In this document: in pieces, positions 5,075 to 57,267 of the stretch
Layout: every line of letters starts with the position of its first letter
Position numbering within the stretch: the first letter of the stretch is position 1
Source of the DNA: Minisyncoccia bacterium
GTDB lineage: Bacteria > Patescibacteriota > Minisyncoccia > Phycocordibacterales > PALSA-1337
DNA: 64,000 nucleotides
Direction: 5' to 3'
Assembly: GCA_038211765.1 (NCBI GenBank)
Contig: JBBQVG010000001.1
Location: 1,837-65,836, forward strand
Translations under genes and position numbers: made by a program
Notes under the pieces: model-generated
Told to the model about the DNA's origin: nothing
Seen by the model: only the letters and a program-made list of their open reading frames with translations
Databases searched by the model: none

Positions 5075-5126
5075 CCCAAGACCTACCCTTGCGTGGCGTG
5101 CCCGCCACGCAAGGGTAGGTCTTGGG
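5075..5126. repeat. REP-like palindromic doublet (24-bp perfect inverted repeat, 4-nt spacer) built on the CAAGACCTACCCTTG core
   Basis: 'cccaagacctacccttgcgtggcg tgcc cgccacgcaagggtaggtcttggg'. The same 15-18-mer core recurs at 56468, 57067, 57171, 57250(rc) and 61937. Confidence 0.65.
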
Positions 5127-7765: not shown

Positions 7766-7785
7766 CCCAGTAGGTGATCCTACTG
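7766..7785. repeat. copy of TCACCTACTGGG/CCCAGTAGGTGA repeat family (hairpin CAGTAGG-tgatc-CCTACTG) just after rplF
   Basis: 'cccagtaggtgatcctactg'. Related copies at 14084-14138, 52921-52952 and 63491-63613. Confidence 0.55.
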
Positions 7786-8183: not shown

Positions 8184-8894
8184 ATGACTGCAAAAGAAAT
8201 ACAAAAGAATACAGAAGGAGAAGTCGCTGCAGAAACGGTTGCTCTGGATATACCCGTTGCCGCAGTTCCCGTTCCTGAAGTTGCTGCACCAGCCAACAAG
8301 ATCACTCCGGGACGTAAGGTTCGTGGAGACAATGGTCGTCGCGGTGCTCGTCCAGGAAGCACTGGTCCTGGTGGACCTGGCAGAGGTGGACGCGGTGGTA
8401 GGAGTGATACACGTGAGCGCGTAAAACCAGAGTTCGATAGCAAGATTATCGATATTCGACGTGTGACTCGTGTGACCTCTGGCGGTCGCCGTATGAACTT
8501 TAGTGTGGCTGTGGTCGCCGGTGATCGCAAGGGCCGTGTCGGAGTGGGCATGGGCAAGAGTATCGATACTGCCTCAGCCGTCGAAAAAGCTACACGTGAA
8601 GCAAAGAAACATCTCATCCGCGTGCCGCTCTCGGCTCAGATGACTATTCCTCATGCTGTTGAAGCAAAGTATGGCAGTGCACGCATCATGGTCTTCCCAG
8701 CACGCGGTCGCGGGGTAGTGGCTGGTAGCTCGGCACGCGCTGTTATCGAGCTTGCAGGCATCAAAGACGTCTGTGCCAAATTCCTCTCAGGCAGTAAGAA
8801 CCGCGTCAACAACGCCCGCGCCACTGTCGAAGCTCTGAAGAAACTGATGACAGTATCCCGAGAAGTCTTGCAGGGTAAAGAAATAAAGAAATAA
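8184..8894 (+). CDS. rpsE: 30S ribosomal protein S5 with ~75-aa Gly/Arg/Pro-rich N-terminal extension
   Basis: Core 'IIDIRRVTRVTSGGRRMNFSVAVVAGDRKGRVGVGMGKSIDTASAVEKA' matches S5. It is preceded by 'PGRKVRGDNGRRGARPGSTGPGGPGRGGRGGRSD'. Confidence 0.9.
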   Translation: MTAKEIQKNTEGEVAAETVALDIPVAAVPVPEVAAPANKITPGRKVRGDNGRRGARPGSTGPGGPGRGGRGGRSDTRERVKPEFDSKIIDIRRVTRVTSGGRRMNFSVAVVAGDRKGRVGVGMGKSIDTASAVEKATREAKKHLIRVPLSAQMTIPHAVEAKYGSARIMVFPARGRGVVAGSSARAVIELAGIKDVCAKFLSGSKNRVNNARATVEALKKLMTVSREVLQGKEIKK

Positions 8895-9483: not shown

Positions 9484-10758
9484 ATGAAAAATTTCTGGGA
9501 AAAAATGTCGATAGCGTTCAAGGATCCTATTCTTAGGAAAAGGGTAGGCTTTACTGTTTTGGCGCTTGTTATTTTCCGTGCTTTGGCTGCAATCCCTATA
9601 CCAGGTGTCGATGTGGCAAACCTCGAGAGACTCCTTGCATCCAGCCAGTTCTTTGGTTTTTTGAATATTTTTTCAGGAGGTGGTCTTTCCAATCTTTCCA
9701 TTGTCATGCTCGGTGTCGGACCCTTCATCACCGCTTCCATCGTTATCCAGCTTTTGACCATGATGGTACCTTCGTGGAAGGCTCTGATGCACGATGAGGG
9801 TGAGGCAGGTCGTCTCAAGCTTTCGAACTACTCACGCCTCCTCGGAGCACCGCTTGCGGTACTTCAGGCTATTGGCTTTATTGTCCTTCTGCAATCACAA
9901 AATGTATTGCCACAGCTTTCTTCTTCGGCGATGACAGTGAGTGTTATCGTAGTATCTGCAGGCTCCATACTCCTCATGTGGATCGGTGAATTGATCTCCG
10001 AGTTTGGTATCGGCAATGGCGTATCGCTCATTATCTTTGCTGGTATCGTCTCCGCTCTGCCGAACAAGATCACACAGTTTGCAGCAAGTTACGATCCTTC
10101 GCAGATCCCTTTCTATATAGGCGCTATAGCGGTGAGTCTTGTTGTTATTGCCGGTGTGGTATACGTGACCGAAGCGGAACGCTCTGTGCCTGTCACCTAC
10201 GCCAAGCAGGTCCGCGGAAACAAGGTCTATGGCGGGGCTTCTACTTATCTTCCACTTCGCCTCAACCAGGCCGGAGTTATCCCTATTATCTTTGCTCTCT
10301 CCATACTTTTGTTTCCTCAGATTATTTCCAATTTCCTTTCTCATTGGTCTAGTCAGCCGGCTATCGCTAGTGCCGCGGCTTCATTTACACTTTTCTTTAA
10401 TAATCCCTGGGTATACGGCATCGCCTACTTTGTACTAGTTGTCCTCTTCACCTACTTCTATACCGCGGTCACCTTCGATCCAAAGATGATCTCCGAAAAT
10501 CTCCAGCGTGGAGGAGCTTTCATCCCTGGCGTTCGTCCTGGTGAACACACACGTGACCACCTGGCCTCCATCGTTACCCGTATCACTCTCGTTGGCGCTG
10601 TATTCCTTGGTATTATCGCCATCTTGCCACTTCTCATGCAGGCTTTCACTGCCAACAAATCTCTTGCTATCGGAGGTACTGCACTCCTTATCGTTGTCTC
10701 CGTAGTTCTGGATCTCTTGAAGAAAGTCGATGCACAGGTTTCGATGAGGGAGTATTAG
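9484..10758 (+). CDS. secY: preprotein translocase subunit SecY
   Basis: 424 aa with 10 predicted TM segments. 'ALVIFRALAAIPIPGVD' and 'GNGVSLIIFAGIV' are SecY hallmarks. Confidence 0.95.
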   Translation: MKNFWEKMSIAFKDPILRKRVGFTVLALVIFRALAAIPIPGVDVANLERLLASSQFFGFLNIFSGGGLSNLSIVMLGVGPFITASIVIQLLTMMVPSWKALMHDEGEAGRLKLSNYSRLLGAPLAVLQAIGFIVLLQSQNVLPQLSSSAMTVSVIVVSAGSILLMWIGELISEFGIGNGVSLIIFAGIVSALPNKITQFAASYDPSQIPFYIGAIAVSLVVIAGVVYVTEAERSVPVTYAKQVRGNKVYGGASTYLPLRLNQAGVIPIIFALSILLFPQIISNFLSHWSSQPAIASAAASFTLFFNNPWVYGIAYFVLVVLFTYFYTAVTFDPKMISENLQRGGAFIPGVRPGEHTRDHLASIVTRITLVGAVFLGIIAILPLLMQAFTANKSLAIGGTALLIVVSVVLDLLKKVDAQVSMREY

Positions 10759-13718: not shown

Positions 13719-14083
13719 TGAGGAGAAAGTTTTTACTTTTCTCATTTTGTCAACGGTTGCTCCTACCCCCAAATAATGTCGAAACTTATTTGAGCACTTG
13801 CGCTCCGCTGTGATAGGAATAAAATGTAAGTAGGTCGCACGGAGTAAATTCCACAAAATCTTATTTTGGGAGATCGAAGAACCCGCCCCTTTGCGCTTTG
13901 AATAGGGGTCGAGCTCAGAAGAGCGGGTTCACATTCGTTCGCACCTTGGTGTTGAACGTGAGATCACCCCCCTGGATTTGCCAGGGATCTACTCTTGCGA
14001 CCTATAGAGCACGTCCCGCGTCTTCCCATCTCTTCATAGGGTAGGGGAAGCCCGCAGGGCGTTTTCTATTGAAACTGAATAAG

Positions 14084-14138
14084 CAGATTCGGCCAGGCAC
14101 GAATCTGTGAATCAGCAGATTCACCTACTGGGCTGATT
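14084..14138. repeat. copy of TCACCTACTGGG repeat family (two adjacent hairpins)
   Basis: 'cagattcggccaggcacgaatctg' (7-bp stem) + 'aatcagcagattcacctactgggctgatt' (7-bp stem). Near-identical to 63538-63598. Confidence 0.6.
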
Positions 14139-14186
14139 TGCCTCCTAGGTGGTATAATTTCTGCAACCATTTACCCAACTACTCAT

Positions 14187-19976: not shown

Positions 19977-20341
19977 GGGGATGATCGGCTTCGACAAGCG
20001 ATCGTTTTCGTCCGTGCGATGCGAGCACCATTAACTCGTAAATCTGATGGAAATCACAAATGCTAAATCAACCGTTTCTCCGTATTTCGGAGCCAAGGAC
20101 TTTGCATTCGCACTAGTTTAACTAGAGCGCGTTCACCCAAGGGGATCCATACCTTGATGTGGATGTCATTACCCGGATGTAGGTATTACGAGACTTCTCA
20201 GCTCGTAGCCGAAACACCGAGATCGCGATTATGTGTTTTGCAATATTTTTCAGCATAATCGTTAAACTACAAATTTTGCTACCATCGTAGAATCGTTCGA
20301 CAAACATCGTTTGAACCTGGGTTCGATTCCCAGCATCTCCA
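19977..20341 (+). ncRNA. ssrA: tmRNA (ssrA), one-piece, immediately downstream of smpB
   Basis: 5' 'GGGGATGATCGGCTTCGACAAGCG' pairs with 3' 'CATCTCC'+A. T-arm 'CTGGG TTCGATT CCCAG' abuts the acceptor. Candidate tag frame from resume GCT at 20062 (AKSTVSPYFGAKDFAFALV*) ends at TAA 20119-20121. CCA not encoded. Confidence 0.65.
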
Positions 20342-20428
20342 CAAATTTGACAGATATGAGTAAACATGCTATCATTTTAGGTAGCAGTTTTACAGCAATC
20401 CAACAACCAAAACGTCCGAAACAGCACA

Positions 20429-20982: not shown

Positions 20983-21067
20983 ATATATCAGATTCTATTC
21001 CCACCTTGTGAACCTCCTACGTCAAATACCCTCTAAACAGTGCAGCTTTGGAGCTCCCGAAGCCCCA

Positions 21068-21118
21068 CAATCGCTTCAGACATCTCAAAAACCCAAGGAT
21101 ATAGTTGGTTCCAACTTT
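21068..21118 (+). repeat. 51-bp perfect direct repeat, copy 1
   Basis: 'caatcgcttcagacatctcaaaaacccaaggatatagttggttccaacttt', identical to 21735-21785. Confidence 0.7.
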
Positions 21119-21652: not shown

Positions 21653-21734
21653 GGCAGATTAATTTACCGCAGTAGACCTTCATGAGACTGACCTTTATAG
21701 GCTTTCTCACGAAGGTCTTTCTCTTATATATTTA

Positions 21735-21785
21735 CAATCGCTTCAGACATCTCAAAAACCCAAGGATATAGTTGGTTCCAACTTT
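21735..21785 (+). repeat. 51-bp perfect direct repeat, copy 2
   Basis: Identical to 21068-21118. Confidence 0.7.
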
Positions 21786-27192: not shown

Positions 27193-27266
27193 CCGCCCTT
27201 AGCTCAGTTGGTTAGAGCACAGAGCTTATACCTCTGGGGTCCTTGGTTCGAATCCAAGAGGGCGGA
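27193..27266 (+). tRNA. tRNA-Ile with anticodon UAU (AUA decoder)
   Basis: Manual cloverleaf: acceptor CCGCCCT/AGGGCGG, D-arm GCTC-AGTTGGTTA-GAGC, anticodon stem CAGAG/CTCTG, loop CTTATAC, T-arm CTTGG-TTCGAAT-CCAAG, discriminator A. No CCA encoded. Confidence 0.7.
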
Positions 27267-52920: not shown

Positions 52921-52952
52921 ATCAGCCCAGTAGGTGATCCTGCTGGATCAGG
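52921..52952. repeat. copy of TCACCTACTGGG repeat family after pilB (palindrome TGATCC-tgc-TGGATCA)
   Basis: 'atcagcccagtaggtgatcctgctggatcagg'. Confidence 0.55.
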
Positions 52953-55922: not shown

Positions 55923-56393
55923 ATGAAAAAGTACACAAAGGGTTTTACCCTCATCGAATTGCTCGTGGTCATCGCTATCATCGGTATTCTTTCGTCAGTT
56001 GTGTTGGTTAGTTTGAATACGGCTCGAAGTAAGGGTGCAGATGCAAAAGTTCAGTCACAAATGTCCTCTATCAGAAGTGCTGCTGAGTTGATCTATGGTA
56101 ATAACAATACTAACTACGGCACAGGCTCAGCTAGCTTGAATTGCGGAACCCTTCTAACAGATACGACTTCAGGAATGGTTAATATCCTGACTGCTACCAA
56201 TTGGCCTAACAGTACCGCCCCAGTATGTAATGCGAAGGCTTCAGCTTCTCCATATGCAGTTACAGGATATGCAATGTGGCATGCCCTTGTTTCGGACACA
56301 ACAAAGTTCGTATGTGTCGACAGCACTGGCGCATTAGTTACCATCAGTGAAGCACCTACAGCAGGAAACAGTTGTGCAAACGGAGCTCTCTAA
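55923..56393 (+). CDS. pilA: type IV pilin (major pilin candidate)
   Basis: Class III signal 'MKKYTKG|FTLIELLVVIAIIGILSSVVLVSL', Glu at +5, C-terminal Cys pair. Confidence 0.85.
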   Translation: MKKYTKGFTLIELLVVIAIIGILSSVVLVSLNTARSKGADAKVQSQMSSIRSAAELIYGNNNTNYGTGSASLNCGTLLTDTTSGMVNILTATNWPNSTAPVCNAKASASPYAVTGYAMWHALVSDTTKFVCVDSTGALVTISEAPTAGNSCANGAL

Positions 56394-56465
56394 TGTAATA
56401 TAATTCCATTATAGGTTCAAAACCACCCACTACCCAGTGGGTGGTTTTGCGTACCACCCCCCACC

Positions 56466-57084
56466 CCCAAGACCTACCCATGCAGGGGTCCCTGCCAGGG
56501 TTGGGCTTGGGGGGCGATGAGCGCCGTCGGTGGCCGATCCTCACCCAGATAATCTTTGTAGCTTGAGTACTCATAGGTCTTGGAATACCGAATCGCTTCT
56601 TCGAGGTGTTCAAGCCTTGCGGATTTCATCATATCCGGCTTTTCGATCCCAAAAGGATTGAGGTGAATATACTGGATCAAATACCTCATATAGTCATCAC
56701 TATTTATATATTTTGACTTGTATTGACCCTGAAAGAGGGTTCCTGAGTGATCGTATTTGCGGTTGTAGTACATTGAATACGCGCAACACAGTTTGTGTAT
56801 GAAGGTGCTTATTCCTTTGTCGGTATTTTCCCTTGCGATGATGTGGAAATGGTTGGGCATCAGACAATAGACCAGAATGCTTACGTAAGGGCTCGTGCGT
56901 TCGCATGAGAAGATTTTTTGGGTATTGAGTTCGTTGAACCGCAAAGGGTTGTTATTGTTGGCAATATAGAGGAGGCACAAAAACCTCCAATAATCCGCCT
57001 CGTCTAGGAATATCGGCGCTTTATGAGCCCCGCGATTGTATATGTGATGATATTCTGACATTTTCTACAAGACCTACCCTTGTA
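56466..57084. mobile_element. RAYT/IS200-like unit with flanking REP-like sequences inserted between the two pilin genes
   Basis: Gene plus flanking CAAGACCTACCC(A/T)TG copies. Sits in the pilA1-pilA2 intergenic space. Confidence 0.55.
56474..57061 (-). CDS. tnpA: IS200/IS605-family Y1 HUH transposase, probably REP-associated (RAYT-like)
   Basis: HUH 'LMPNHFHII', catalytic Tyr region 'RYLIQYIHLNP'. 195 aa. The REP-like core CAAGACCTACCC overlaps its stop (56468-56480) and abuts its start (57067-57084). Confidence 0.7.
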   Translation of the reverse strand: MSEYHHIYNRGAHKAPIFLDEADYWRFLCLLYIANNNNPLRFNELNTQKIFSCERTSPYVSILVYCLMPNHFHIIARENTDKGISTFIHKLCCAYSMYYNRKYDHSGTLFQGQYKSKYINSDDYMRYLIQYIHLNPFGIEKPDMMKSARLEHLEEAIRYSKTYEYSSYKDYLGEDRPPTALIAPQAQPWQGPLHG

Positions 57085-57170
57085 CTCGTAGTCTAGGACA
57101 AGCAGGTTCAATTCCTGATAAAAAAATGTTCAAGAATTGTTCAAAAAATGTTCAATTTTTCTTAAATTCT

Positions 57171-57267
57171 CCACAAGACCTACCCTTGTACTCCACGCAA
57201 TGTGGTACAATCATCATATGAATATTCAAAAGAAATCTTACGAGGGGTGCAAGGGTAGGTCTTGTGG
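57171..57267. repeat. REP inverted pair (REPIN-like) spanning the promoter/-10 box and leader codons of pilin 2
   Basis: 'ccacaagacctacccttg' (57171-57188) ... 58 nt containing 'tacaat' and the ATG ... 'caagggtaggtcttgtgg' (57250-57267). The right arm encodes 'CKGRSCG' of the leader. Confidence 0.65.

What the first reader, a model, noticed from the sequence alone, without database searches (positions are those of the whole stretch)
56466..57084. RAYT/IS200-like transposase with flanking REP-like repeats, inserted between two pilin genes
The 195-aa HUH/Y1 protein (HFHII ... YIHLNP) is flanked on both sides by the CAAGACCTACCC(T/A)TG core. One copy overlaps its stop codon and one abuts its start. 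The same core forms a perfect 24-bp palindromic doublet at 5075-5126 and an inverted pair at 57171-57267. That is the architecture of REP/REPIN elements mobilised by REP-associated tyrosine transposases. REP-RAYT systems are best known in Proteobacteria, so seeing one in a CPR-like genome, inside a pilus operon, is notable.
Basis: partly seen in the sequence, partly recalled or inferred. Interest (0 to 1): 0.7.

Follow-up and report, generated by a model that had tools for sequence, protein, structure and literature searches.

The report
RAYT-like gene with private hairpin repeats
A domesticated single-strand-DNA "transposase" gene in a tiny-genome (CPR/Paceibacteria) bacterium is bracketed by its own short hairpin repeats, as in the REP/RAYT systems of E. 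coli and Pseudomonas. It is an old, vertically inherited resident of the pilus locus, not a fresh insertion, so this is a new example of a known kind of system.

Summary
ORF 56474-57061(-) encodes a 195-aa HUH/Y1 protein. The 15-mer CAAGACCTACCC[T/A]TG occurs 7 times in 64 kb against 0 expected. One copy overlaps the stop codon, one lies 6 nt before the start, and three inverted doublets fold into stable hairpins.

The protein is class 2 TnpA_Y1 (RAYT-like). It has NHFH and YIHLNP motifs, its best PDB fold match is E. coli TnpA_REP (4ER8), and it matches NCBIfam REP_Tyr_transpos weakly with no IS200 match.

Eight independent family loci all have a private short palindrome by the gene, overlapping or abutting the stop; seven also have one just before the start. 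Two 58%-identical paralogues reported from one genome carry different repeats.

The gene is not a recent insertion. Orthologues (59-68% identity) sit at the same place between the same pilins in three other CPR assemblies.

The repeats are low-copy: 8 units at 4 places in the window. Two are in-frame in coding sequence (a pilin leader peptide and ligA).

A genome-wide count was impossible because the source genome is not in the searchable collections. Mobilisation is inferred, not shown.

Verdict: a REPtron in Patescibacteria, moderately interesting.

The parts
56474..57061 (-). RAYT-like class 2 Y1/HUH gene, 195 aa. HUH motif is NHFH (H71, H73). Y motif is Y131-IHL-N135-P136. SS tail motif is S166, S167.
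   Evidence: residues invariant across 25 homologues. AF2 model with pLDDT 83. Foldseek top hit 4ER8, E=4.2e-5.
56464..56512 (.). 3' REP-like imperfect doublet. It consists of unit 56468-56482(+) and a degenerate inverted unit 56495-56509(-). It encodes the last ~13 residues (PQAQPWQGPLHG) and supplies the TAG stop.
   Evidence: ssDNA fold -21 kcal/mol, z = -3.6. Seven other family loci have a private repeat (a doublet in four) overlapping or abutting the stop.
57066..57084 (+). 5' REP-like singlet TACAAGACCTACCCTTGTA, ending 4 nt before the ATG. It forms a 6-bp stem with a 7-nt loop (ACCTACC on the top strand, GGTAGGT on the gene strand).
   Evidence: D3; weak hairpin, -2.5 to -3.1 kcal/mol. 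Six of the seven other family loci carry their repeat within ~10 nt of the start codon; L103 has only an unrelated hairpin there.
57085..57170 (-). T-rich, promoter-like spacer upstream of the RAYT gene, containing three TTGAACA repeats and TTATCA. Promoter function is inferred only.
   Evidence: By eye. A similar element, TTGAAC.TTTTTTTATC.GGAATT, lies upstream of the L103 homologue. The consensus scan did not call it.
57171..57267 (.). REPIN-like inverted doublet with arms 57171-57200 and 57238-57267. The 37-nt spacer holds the ATG of the downstream pilin (57218). The right arm encodes leader residues CKGRSC.
   Evidence: I5; -26.1 kcal/mol, z = -7.4. The orthologous pilins have 10-aa leaders against 20 aa here.
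5075..5126 (.). Distal perfect REPIN-like palindrome (24-nt arms, 4-nt loop), 51 kb from the gene. It is intergenic, between two same-strand ORFs, just after an intrinsic-terminator-like hairpin.
   Evidence: I9; -34.1 kcal/mol, z = -12.7.
61936..61954 (+). Exact 19-nt REP singlet inside ligA, encoding VQDLPLY. It replaces 8 codons with no length change relative to orthologues.
   Evidence: (D3).
56419..56448 (.). Bidirectional intrinsic terminator between pilin 1 and the RAYT gene. It is separate from the REP doublet.
   Evidence: Equivalent hairpins sit downstream of the L001 and L005 orthologues.
55923..56393 (+). Context: type IV pilin 1, with leader MKKYTKG|FTLIELLV.
   Evidence: 72% identical over 58 aligned residues, the conserved N-terminal part, to the L005 pilin.
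57218..57799 (+). Context: type IV pilin 2, with a REP-extended leader MNIQKKSYEGCKGRSCGGGG|FTLVELMV.

Best explanation
This is a REPtron in a Patescibacteria (Paceibacteria, Taylorbacteria-like) genome. It is a single, vertically inherited, domesticated class 2 Y1/HUH endonuclease gene (RAYT/TIRYT-like) bracketed by its own cognate short palindromic repeat.

Shown:
- The protein keeps every catalytic signature: the HUH metal site and the Tyr of YIHLNP.
- It has the TnpA_REP-like fold.
- It is flanked by one repeat family that also occurs as inverted doublets and singlets elsewhere.
- Homologues, including paralogues reported from one genome, each carry a different private palindrome in the same gene-relative positions.

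Inferred by homology to E. coli TnpA_REP and IS608 TnpA:
- The enzyme binds the repeat when it is extruded as a hairpin in single-stranded DNA, for example on the lagging-strand template.
- It cleaves nearby through a 5'-phosphotyrosine link at Tyr131 and rejoins the DNA.
- This occasionally copies or moves singlets and doublets.

That activity would account for the low-copy dispersal, mostly near the gene. It would also account for in-frame landings in tolerant coding segments such as the pilin leader, ligA loops and, in relatives, the RAYT gene itself. The repeats next to the start and stop codons probably also affect expression of the gene.
For: Protein:
- Pfam Y1_Tnp matches above its cut-off.
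- NCBIfam REP_Tyr_transpos is hit at E=1.7e-10 by the window protein and by all 25 aligned homologues. None hits an IS200 model.
- H71, H73, Y131, N135 and P136 are invariant.
- Y---NP is the class 2 signature according to PMC6006769.
- The AF2 model has pLDDT 83. Its best PDB match is 4ER8 (TnpA_REP bound to a REP hairpin), ahead of IS608 and ISDra2 TnpA.

Repeats:
- 7 copies against 0 expected.
- The doublets fold with z = -3.6 to -12.7.
- Copies lie 51 kb and 4.9 kb from the gene.

Comparative evidence:
- Loci L001, L005, L099, L101, L102, L103 and L104 each have their own palindrome at or near the gene ends, plus a few copies further away. Each count compares with about 0 in shuffles.
- P0017 and P0043 (each reported with a longest contig of 342,455 bp, taken here as the same contig; 58% identical) carry GAGGTGGAACCTC and GAGGTCGGACCTC respectively.
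- L104 (61% identical protein) carries a close variant of the window's repeat, CAAGGCCTACCCTTG, with a different stem around the same RCCTACC loop.

Vertical inheritance:
- Three other assemblies show the same synteny.
- RAYT identity (59%) is similar to LigA identity (55%) between the window and L005.

The low abundance of the flanking k-mers matches what Bertels et al. report for Group 1 RAYTs, about 12 occurrences per replicon (PMC5581495).
Against: - No activity data exist for this family.
- No presence/absence polymorphism of a repeat was seen between three assemblies of the same Taylorbacteria locus (L003-L005).
- Copy number is low and clustered near the gene, so 'mobile population' is a weak description.
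- Another 20 kb of a genome carrying the GAGGTGGAACCTC type had no copy of it (L099).
- The NCBIfam score (40.9) is far below the equivalog cut-off of 80.
- The motif signature fits subclass 2.1, which Quentin et al. found to lack REPs.
- The ligA copy involves no length change relative to orthologues, which a simple insertion does not explain.
- The genome-wide count could not be made.
Confidence: 0.75

Rival explanations
1. The palindromes are mainly cis-regulatory or structural elements, such as operators for autoregulation by the Y1 protein, RNA stability or translation-control hairpins, or replication/topology sites. On this reading the protein is a domesticated ssDNA-binding enzyme with a host function. 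The dispersed copies would be rare by-products rather than a replicating population.
For: - The repeats sit at fixed gene-relative positions, within ~10 nt of the ATG and over the stop, in seven of eight loci.
- Copy number is very low and concentrated around the gene.
- The gene is conserved like a housekeeping gene.
- No copy polymorphism was seen among L003-L005.
Against: - A separate intrinsic terminator already follows the gene, so the 3' doublet is not needed for termination.
- Exact copies lie in unrelated places: 51 kb away, and in-frame in ligA and in a pilin leader.
- In L005 copies lie in ligA, in the RAYT gene itself and between pilC and a pilin. These need a copying mechanism.
- The catalytic residues are invariant.
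- This reading is partly compatible with the best explanation.
Confidence: 0.15
2. An autonomous IS200-type insertion sequence recently transposed into the pilin operon, with the flanking motif copies acting as its left-end and right-end hairpins.
For: - The gene belongs to the Y1_Tnp family.
- The copy abutting the ATG and the copy over the stop are in the same orientation, as with IS200/IS605 ends.
- The unit is about 620 bp, which is IS200-sized.
Against: - The same slot is occupied in three other assemblies whose core genes are only 55-78% identical.
- There is only one copy in 64 kb, and paralogues elsewhere are only about 58% identical.
- The Y motif is Y---NP, not Y---Q (PMC6006769).
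- No IS200 NCBIfam model is hit.
- There is no tnpB nearby.
- The repeat occurs without the gene.
Confidence: 0.03
3. The 15-mer is a DNA-uptake-sequence-like signal tied to the type IV pilus/competence locus, and the Y1 protein processes incoming single-stranded DNA.
For: - The gene sits inside the pilus locus in four genomes.
- Inverted pairs next to terminators and copies inside genes resemble Neisseria DUS and Haemophilus USS. This resemblance rests on my own knowledge.
Against: - Density is far too low: 8 units in 64 kb, 5 of them within 800 bp of the gene.
- Family members with the same repeat architecture sit in ribosomal-protein, mraZ, gyrA-adjacent and glycosyltransferase contexts.
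- Paralogues reported from one genome have different repeats.
Confidence: 0.03

Closest known systems
REPtron: RAYT/TnpA_REP with flanking REP/REPIN (E. coli yafM/rayT, PDB 4ER8; Pseudomonas Group 3 RAYTs)
   Same: - Y1/HUH fold, with 4ER8 as the best structural match.
- Y---NP motif.
- Single copy with a conserved location.
- The gene is flanked by a palindromic repeat that also occurs as inverted doublets elsewhere.
- Paralogues each have their own repeat.
- Repeats overlapping the gene's 5' or 3' ends, and in-frame intragenic REPs (often in replication or repair genes), are already described (PMC3733652, PMC6006769).
   Different: - Only 11% identity to 4ER8 with TM about 0.5, and below the NCBIfam equivalog cut-off.
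- The repeats are shorter (15-19 nt core) and low-copy.
- There is no GT[AG]G tetranucleotide at the hairpin foot. In the window GTAG lies in the loop or stem.
- The host is a CPR bacterium.
TnpA_Y1 subclass 2.1 (Bertels Group 1 RAYTs; TIRYTs of Di Nocera et al.)
   Same: - The motif signature matches: NH[YF]H, FQ in place of W[EQ], Y[IV]HLNP, and a proximal tail with conserved SS (against Table 1 of PMC6006769).
- Flanking k-mers are of low genomic abundance (PMC5581495).
- The next-nearest relatives, at about 40% identity, are 225-235 aa proteins with the same motifs.
   Different: - The protein is 195 aa, against a subclass median of 238.
- It has no HTH or DnaA_C-like C-terminal domain; only Y1_Tnp is found.
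- It is flanked by self-complementary hairpin repeats with dispersed copies, whereas subclass 2.1 was reported without REPs.
- There is no GGGGWSAS terminal inverted repeat motif.
IS200/IS605 TnpA (IS608, ISDra2, IS200)
   Same: - Same superfamily and fold.
- Hairpins at both gene ends in the same orientation.
   Different: - Y---NP rather than Y---Q.
- Not multicopy.
- Syntenic across distant genomes.
- No tnpB.
- The repeats exist independently of the gene.
Rickettsia palindromic elements (RPE) and other intragenic REPs
   Same: Palindromic repeats written in-frame into protein-coding genes at tolerant positions. Here these are the pilin leader and ligA, and in L005 a ligA loop and the RAYT gene.
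   Different: RPEs are 100-150 bp and have no known cognate Y1 gene. That statement rests on my own knowledge. The units here are 15-40 bp and are linked to a RAYT-like gene.

Membership tests
Class 2 TnpA_Y1 (RAYT / TnpA_REP sensu lato) | HUH metal-binding motif | tested here: met
   NHFH motif, with H71 and H73 invariant in 25 homologues.
Class 2 TnpA_Y1 (RAYT / TnpA_REP sensu lato) | Y motif Y-x-x-x-N-P (class 2) rather than Y-x-x-x-Q (IS200) | tested here: met
   Y131-I-H-L-N135-P136, with Y, H, N and P invariant. The signature definition comes from PMC6006769.
Class 2 TnpA_Y1 (RAYT / TnpA_REP sensu lato) | Y1 transposase fold closest to TnpA_REP | tested here: met
   AF2 model pLDDT 83, pTM 0.82. 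Foldseek PDB rank 1 is 4er8_A at E=4.2e-5; IS608 and ISDra2 follow at E of 1.6e-3 or worse.
Class 2 TnpA_Y1 (RAYT / TnpA_REP sensu lato) | Score above the NCBIfam REP_Tyr_transpos (NF047646) equivalog cut-off | tested here: not met
   40.9 bits against a cut-off of 80. All 25 homologues match only below threshold. The protein is therefore not an equivalog of the proteobacterial RAYT.
Class 2 TnpA_Y1 (RAYT / TnpA_REP sensu lato) | Low copy number, with paralogues divergent | tested here: met
   One copy in the 64-kb window. The whole source genome is not available.
Class 2 TnpA_Y1 (RAYT / TnpA_REP sensu lato) | Vertical inheritance with a conserved genomic position | tested here: met
   The same slot between pilins is occupied in the P0001, P0006 and P0017 loci. 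Core-gene identities to the window are 55-78%. More distant family members sit elsewhere.
Class 2 TnpA_Y1 (RAYT / TnpA_REP sensu lato) | Sequence-specific binding and cleavage of the cognate repeat as ssDNA | not testable with these tools
   This needs biochemistry.
REP / REPIN repeats | Short imperfect palindrome able to form a hairpin | tested here: met
   The singlet is TACAAG-ACCTACC-CTTGTA, a weak hairpin of -2.5 to -3.3 kcal/mol. The doublets fold at -21 to -34 kcal/mol.
REP / REPIN repeats | Inverted pairs (REPIN or BIME-like doublets) | tested here: met
   Three doublets: 5075-5126, 56464-56512 and 57171-57267.
REP / REPIN repeats | 5' GT[AG]G tetranucleotide at the foot of the hairpin | tested here: inconclusive
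   GTAG is present in the unit (CAAGG-GTAG-GTCTTG), but it lies in the loop or stem rather than at the foot. The related L104 doublet does read GTAG-hairpin-CTAC, a 'double foot'. The L001, L005 and L099 repeats have GTGG or GTCG inside the stem.
REP / REPIN repeats | High copy number dispersed over the genome | tested here: inconclusive
   There are 8 units at 4 places in 64 kb, 5 of them within 800 bp of the gene. Scans of genome contigs and metagenome contigs returned only single chance hits, so the source genome is not held.
REP / REPIN repeats | Extragenic location | tested here: not met
   Two units are in-frame in coding sequence, in the pilin leader and in ligA, and the 3' doublet encodes the RAYT C-terminus. 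Such exceptions are documented (PMC3733652).
IS200/IS605 insertion sequence | Y---Q motif and a match to IS200 transposase models | tested here: not met
IS200/IS605 insertion sequence | Several near-identical copies, variable position between relatives, often with tnpB | tested here: not met
   Single copy. Syntenic in relatives. The neighbours are pilins.
TnpA_Y1 subclass 2.1 / TIRYT | Motif signature NH[YF]H, FQ, Y[IV]HLNP and an SS tail | tested here: met
   By inspection of alignment A1 against Table 1 of PMC6006769. No subclass HMMs were available, so this is a motif match and not a phylogeny.
TnpA_Y1 subclass 2.1 / TIRYT | C-terminal HTH or Bac_DnaA_C-like domain (median length 238 aa) | tested here: not met
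   The protein is 195 aa and only Y1_Tnp is found. The tail after residue 176 is encoded by the repeat.
TnpA_Y1 subclass 2.1 / TIRYT | Flanked by GGGGWSAS-type terminal inverted repeats, with no REP-like hairpins | tested here: not met
   The flanks are self-complementary repeats with dispersed copies. No GGGGWSAS is seen by eye in 56440-56520 or 57062-57270.

The most novel reading that the evidence does not exclude
Paceibacteria may carry a large, anciently vertical family of short RAYT-like enzymes in which every paralogue keeps a private hairpin repeat. The enzyme may write copies of that hairpin, in-frame and sometimes without any length change, into protein-coding genes such as pilin leaders, LigA and its own gene. 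That would make it a Y1-driven source of local protein-sequence change in minimal genomes. Alternatively, the pilus-locus orthologue may have a role in handling single-stranded DNA taken up through the type IV pilus.
Probability: 0.1. Interest if true: 0.7.

Novelty: new member of a known kind. Interest (0 to 1): 0.4.

Why it matters
This extends the REPtron arrangement to the Candidate Phyla Radiation, where genomes are about 1 Mb and have almost no spare intergenic DNA. The arrangement is a domesticated Y1 enzyme plus its cognate palindromic repeats. In four searches I found no paper in the held library describing it in CPR bacteria.

The family is large: about 8000 hits, with 145 clusters (at 50% identity) at E<=1e-30. 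Its repeats are short and its orthologues are syntenic. It could therefore serve as a compact natural series of enzyme/hairpin pairs for studying how Y1 specificity co-evolves.

It also has a practical use for annotation. The odd C-termini of these proteins, extended pilin leaders and small LigA insertions in CPR MAGs can all be repeat-encoded.

It does not reveal a new mechanism.

Tried and rejected
1. Exact-protein look-up of the window's RAYT found nothing on record.

2. I scanned for MCAAGACCTACCCTTGYR to get a genome-wide count.
- The scan of 185,579 species genomes gave 37 single hits in unrelated taxa.
- The scan of 241 M metagenome records gave 56 single hits.
- None of these loci encodes a RAYT homologue, so they are chance matches and the source genome is not held.
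- In hindsight the pattern was too strict. It would also have missed the related L104 variant, TCAAGGCCTACCCTTGC.

3. A PDB sequence search gave nothing useful. The fold search was needed instead.

4. A functional link to the pilus was considered because of the striking synteny. I rejected it as the main reading because family members with the same repeat architecture sit in unrelated contexts.

5. I compared L003, L004 and L005, three assemblies of one Taylorbacteria locus, looking for repeat presence/absence polymorphism. All 10 copies are present in each.

6. I tested whether L104, which shares the window's repeat type, is syntenic with the window. It is not, so the history of repeat type against locus remains unresolved.

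7. Rfam found no known RNA family at the repeats.

8. Literature searches for RAYT or REP in CPR/Patescibacteria found only an incidental KEGG annotation in an archaeal paper.
Full report
**1. Observation**

The ORF 56474-57061(-) encodes 195 aa with HFHII and YIHLNP. It matches Pfam Y1_Tnp above its cut-off (E=1.5e-8).

The core CAAGACCTACCC[T/A]TG occurs 7 times in the window, against 0.00 in 100 dinucleotide-preserving shuffles.
- The copy at 56468-56482 contains the stop codon.
- The copy at 57068-57082 ends 6 nt before the ATG.
- 5075-5126 is a perfect 24+24-nt palindrome.
- 57171-57267 is a 30-nt-arm inverted pair.

As single-stranded DNA the doublets fold far better than shuffles, with z = -12.7, -7.4 and -3.6. 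The singlets are weak 6-bp/7-nt-loop hairpins.

- The stop-codon copy has a degenerate inverted partner at 56495-56509, so the gene's 3' end is also a doublet.
- An exact 19-nt copy lies inside ligA at 61936-61954.
- The right arm of the 57171-57267 pair lies inside the leader peptide of the downstream pilin. That pilin starts at 57218 and reads MNIQKKSYEGCKGRSCGGGG|FTLVELMV. The orthologous pilins have 10-aa leaders.

**2. The protein**

- NCBIfam gives one hit, REP_Tyr_transpos, at E=1.7e-10 but only 40.9 bits against a cut-off of 80. No IS200 model is hit. The same holds for all 25 aligned homologues.
- In that alignment H71 and H73 (NHFH) and Y131, H133, N135 and P136 (YIHLNP) are invariant, as are S166 and S167.
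- Quentin et al. 2018 (PMC6006769) define class 2 TnpA_Y1, which contains all RAYTs, by Y---NP. IS200 has Y---Q.
- The combination NH[YF]H / FQ / Y[IV]HLNP / SS tail is their subclass 2.1, equivalent to Bertels Group 1 and mostly 'TIRYT'.
- An AlphaFold model (pLDDT 83, pTM 0.82) has as its best PDB match 4ER8, E. coli TnpA_REP bound to a REP hairpin (E=4.2e-5). IS608, ISDra2 and IS200 transposases rank below it.

The protein is therefore a RAYT-like class 2 enzyme. It is not an equivalog of the proteobacterial RAYT, and it is not a classical IS200 TnpA.

It differs from typical subclass 2.1 in two ways. It is short (195 aa against a median of 238), and it lacks the HTH tail. Its last ~13 residues are encoded by the repeat doublet.

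**3. Relatives and synteny**

The word-indexed search scored 7955 of 8000 candidates at E<=0.001. The best hit is 68% identical. Where names exist they are Taylorbacteria, Paceibacterota or Patescibacteria, and some are already labelled 'REP element-mobilizing transposase RayT' by JGI. The exhaustive search of 50%-identity representatives gives 145 clusters at E<=1e-30 and 4546 at E<=1e-10.

The three closest homologues with usable context (P0001, P0006, P0017) lie at the same position as in the window. The Y1 gene sits on the opposite strand, between two N_methyl pilins. Prepilin peptidase, minor pilins, ligA, gatC and gatA lie on one side, and pilC, pilT, a response regulator and pilB on the other.

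Between the window and the Taylorbacteria locus L005 the identities are PilC 78%, PilT 75%, PilD 68%, LigA 55% and RAYT 59%. The gene has therefore sat there since well before these lineages split, and it diverges about as fast as LigA. 'Inserted between two pilin genes' is true only as a statement of position.

More distant family members lie elsewhere:
- P0022 in a ribosomal-protein operon.
- P0070 beside mraZ.
- P0043 beside gyrA.
- P0004 next to glycosyltransferases.

A functional tie to the pilus is therefore unlikely.

**4. The repeats travel with the gene but differ between genes**

In every locus examined the gene is bracketed by a private short palindrome. In each case the count compares with about 0 in shuffles.

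| Locus | Repeat core |
|---|---|
| L001 and L005 | GAGGTGGAACCTC |
| L099 | GAGGTCGGACCTC |
| L101 | GTAAGGTCTGACCTTAC |
| L102 | CAAGATGACATCTTG |
| L103 | GGTAGGTGTCTCCTACC |
| L104 | [CG]AAGGCCTACCCT[TC]G |

In seven of the eight loci, counting the window, a copy lies within ~10 nt of the ATG; L103 has only an unrelated hairpin there. In all eight a copy overlaps or abuts the stop, as an inverted doublet in five of them.

P0017 and P0043 are each reported with the same longest-contig length (342,455 bp), so I take them to lie on one contig. They are 58% identical and have different loop sequences in their repeats. This is the 'each RAYT has its own REP family' rule known from Pseudomonas.

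L104's repeat is a near relative of the window's. It has the same RCCTACC loop but, in one copy, a different stem: CATGTCGAG...CTCGACATG against TACAAG...CTTGTA. That is what a hairpin read through its loop would show. L104's doublet reads GTAG-hairpin-CTAC, the 'double foot' REP form of Quentin et al.

A separate bidirectional intrinsic terminator follows the gene in the window, L001 and L005. The 3' doublet is therefore not simply a terminator.

**5. Dispersal**

Copies away from the gene exist but are few.
- Window: the perfect doublet 51 kb away (intergenic, just after a terminator-like hairpin) and the ligA singlet.
- L005: a doublet in-frame in a variable ligA loop (PRFHLGTEVEPR), one inside the RAYT gene and one between pilC and a pilin.
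- L001: a doublet beside a 22-aa RAYT remnant.
- L101, L102 and L104: one to two more each.
- Another 20 kb of a genome carrying the L005-type repeat (L099) had none of that type.

This low abundance fits Bertels et al. 2017, who report flanking 16-mers occurring about 12 times per replicon for Group 1, against 57-140 for the REPIN-associated Groups 2 and 3 (PMC5581495).

In-frame REPs in genes, notably replication and repair genes, are already documented. So are REPs inside or overlapping the tyrosine transposase gene (PMC3733652; PMC6006769).

**6. What could not be done**

The exact protein is not on record. Scans of the species-genome and metagenome collections with an 18-mer version of the motif returned only single hits in unrelated organisms, none with a RAYT homologue. 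The source genome is not in these collections, and my pattern was too strict to catch diverged variants such as L104's.

**7. Mechanism**

Shown:
- An intact, conserved Y1/HUH enzyme.
- Cognate hairpin repeats at fixed gene-relative positions.
- Repeat divergence between orthologues and paralogues.
- A few dispersed and intragenic copies.

Inferred from E. coli TnpA_REP and IS608 TnpA: the enzyme recognises the hairpin in ssDNA, cleaves through Tyr131 and rejoins the DNA, occasionally copying units, mostly locally.

A regulatory or structural role of the gene-proximal copies is a compatible partial alternative (confidence 0.15). A recent IS200 insertion and a DNA-uptake signal are each poorly supported (about 0.03).

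One observation is unexplained. The ligA copy replaces 8 codons (VKEGEAQF in L005, EVQDLPLY here) with no length change. Simple insertion does not produce that.

**8. Novelty and score**

This is a REPtron/TIRtron-type system in a phylum where, in four literature searches, I found no description of it. Its protein is a short, HTH-less relative of subclass 2.1. It is a new member of a known kind.

It is of moderate interest because of three features: the deep synteny inside the pilus locus, the size of the family in CPR, and the in-frame copies in a minimal genome. Interest is 0.4.

Noticed in passing
window 7766-7785(-), 14078-14150(+), 52926-52945(-), 63488-63611(+): A second dispersed palindromic repeat family, GAATCAGTAGATTCACCTACTGGG. 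Its hairpin is CAGTAG-ATTCAC-CTACTG, that is GTAG...CTAC. There are 5-6 units at four intergenic places, and the first unit at 63488 overlaps the ligA stop. It shares GTAGGT with the RAYT-flanking family. No second Y1 gene lies in the window, so a cognate paralogue may lie elsewhere in the genome.
   Followed up: partly
window 61598-61719: An in-frame 66-bp tandem duplication inside ligA (PAFAEGYGEAKP... twice), just upstream of the KxDG adenylation motif. It is GC-rich and absent from the L001 and L005 orthologues (D7/D12).
   Followed up: no
window 57053-57087 and 57159-57193: A 35-nt direct repeat, 89% identical and 106 bp apart. The upstream REP unit carries a degenerate copy of the RAYT start (ATGTCAGAA against ATTTAAGAA). 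This suggests an old duplication of the gene's 5' junction (D20).
   Followed up: no
window 32253-37346: Nested long inverted repeats beginning right after a tRNA (32166-32252). The arms are 72 nt (92% complementary), 64 nt (88%) and 56 nt (98%), paired as 34361/37153, 32253/37283 and 32373/34286. This may be an invertible or mobile segment (I1-I3).
   Followed up: no
window 21067-21118 and 21734-21785: A perfect 52-nt direct repeat, 667 bp apart (D8).
   Followed up: no
L001 8361-8426(-) with 8300-8337: A 22-aa remnant of a RAYT C-terminus (73% identical to the window protein) directly followed by a REP doublet. This is a decayed second REPtron, lying between toxin-antitoxin-like genes.
   Followed up: partly
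L005 10185-10233 and L103 10239-10255: REP units inserted in-frame inside the RAYT genes themselves, in variable loops before and after the HUH motif. Quentin et al. reported the same for subclass 2.4.
   Followed up: partly
window 57098-57125(-); L103 ~9900-9960; L099 4053-4111 and 9904-9962: A conserved T-rich, promoter-like element upstream of RAYT genes (TTGAAC.TTTTTTTATC.GGAATT). In L099 a similar 59-nt element also precedes an unrelated histidine-kinase gene, so it is probably a generic promoter type in these genomes.
   Followed up: no
L005 10712-10795: An (ACTAGACTAG)n microsatellite between the RAYT terminator and the pilin gene. Its length differs between L003, L004 and L005.
   Followed up: no
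window 19977-20344: A tmRNA gene (116 bits), plus three tRNAs at 27193, 30401 and 32166.
   Followed up: no
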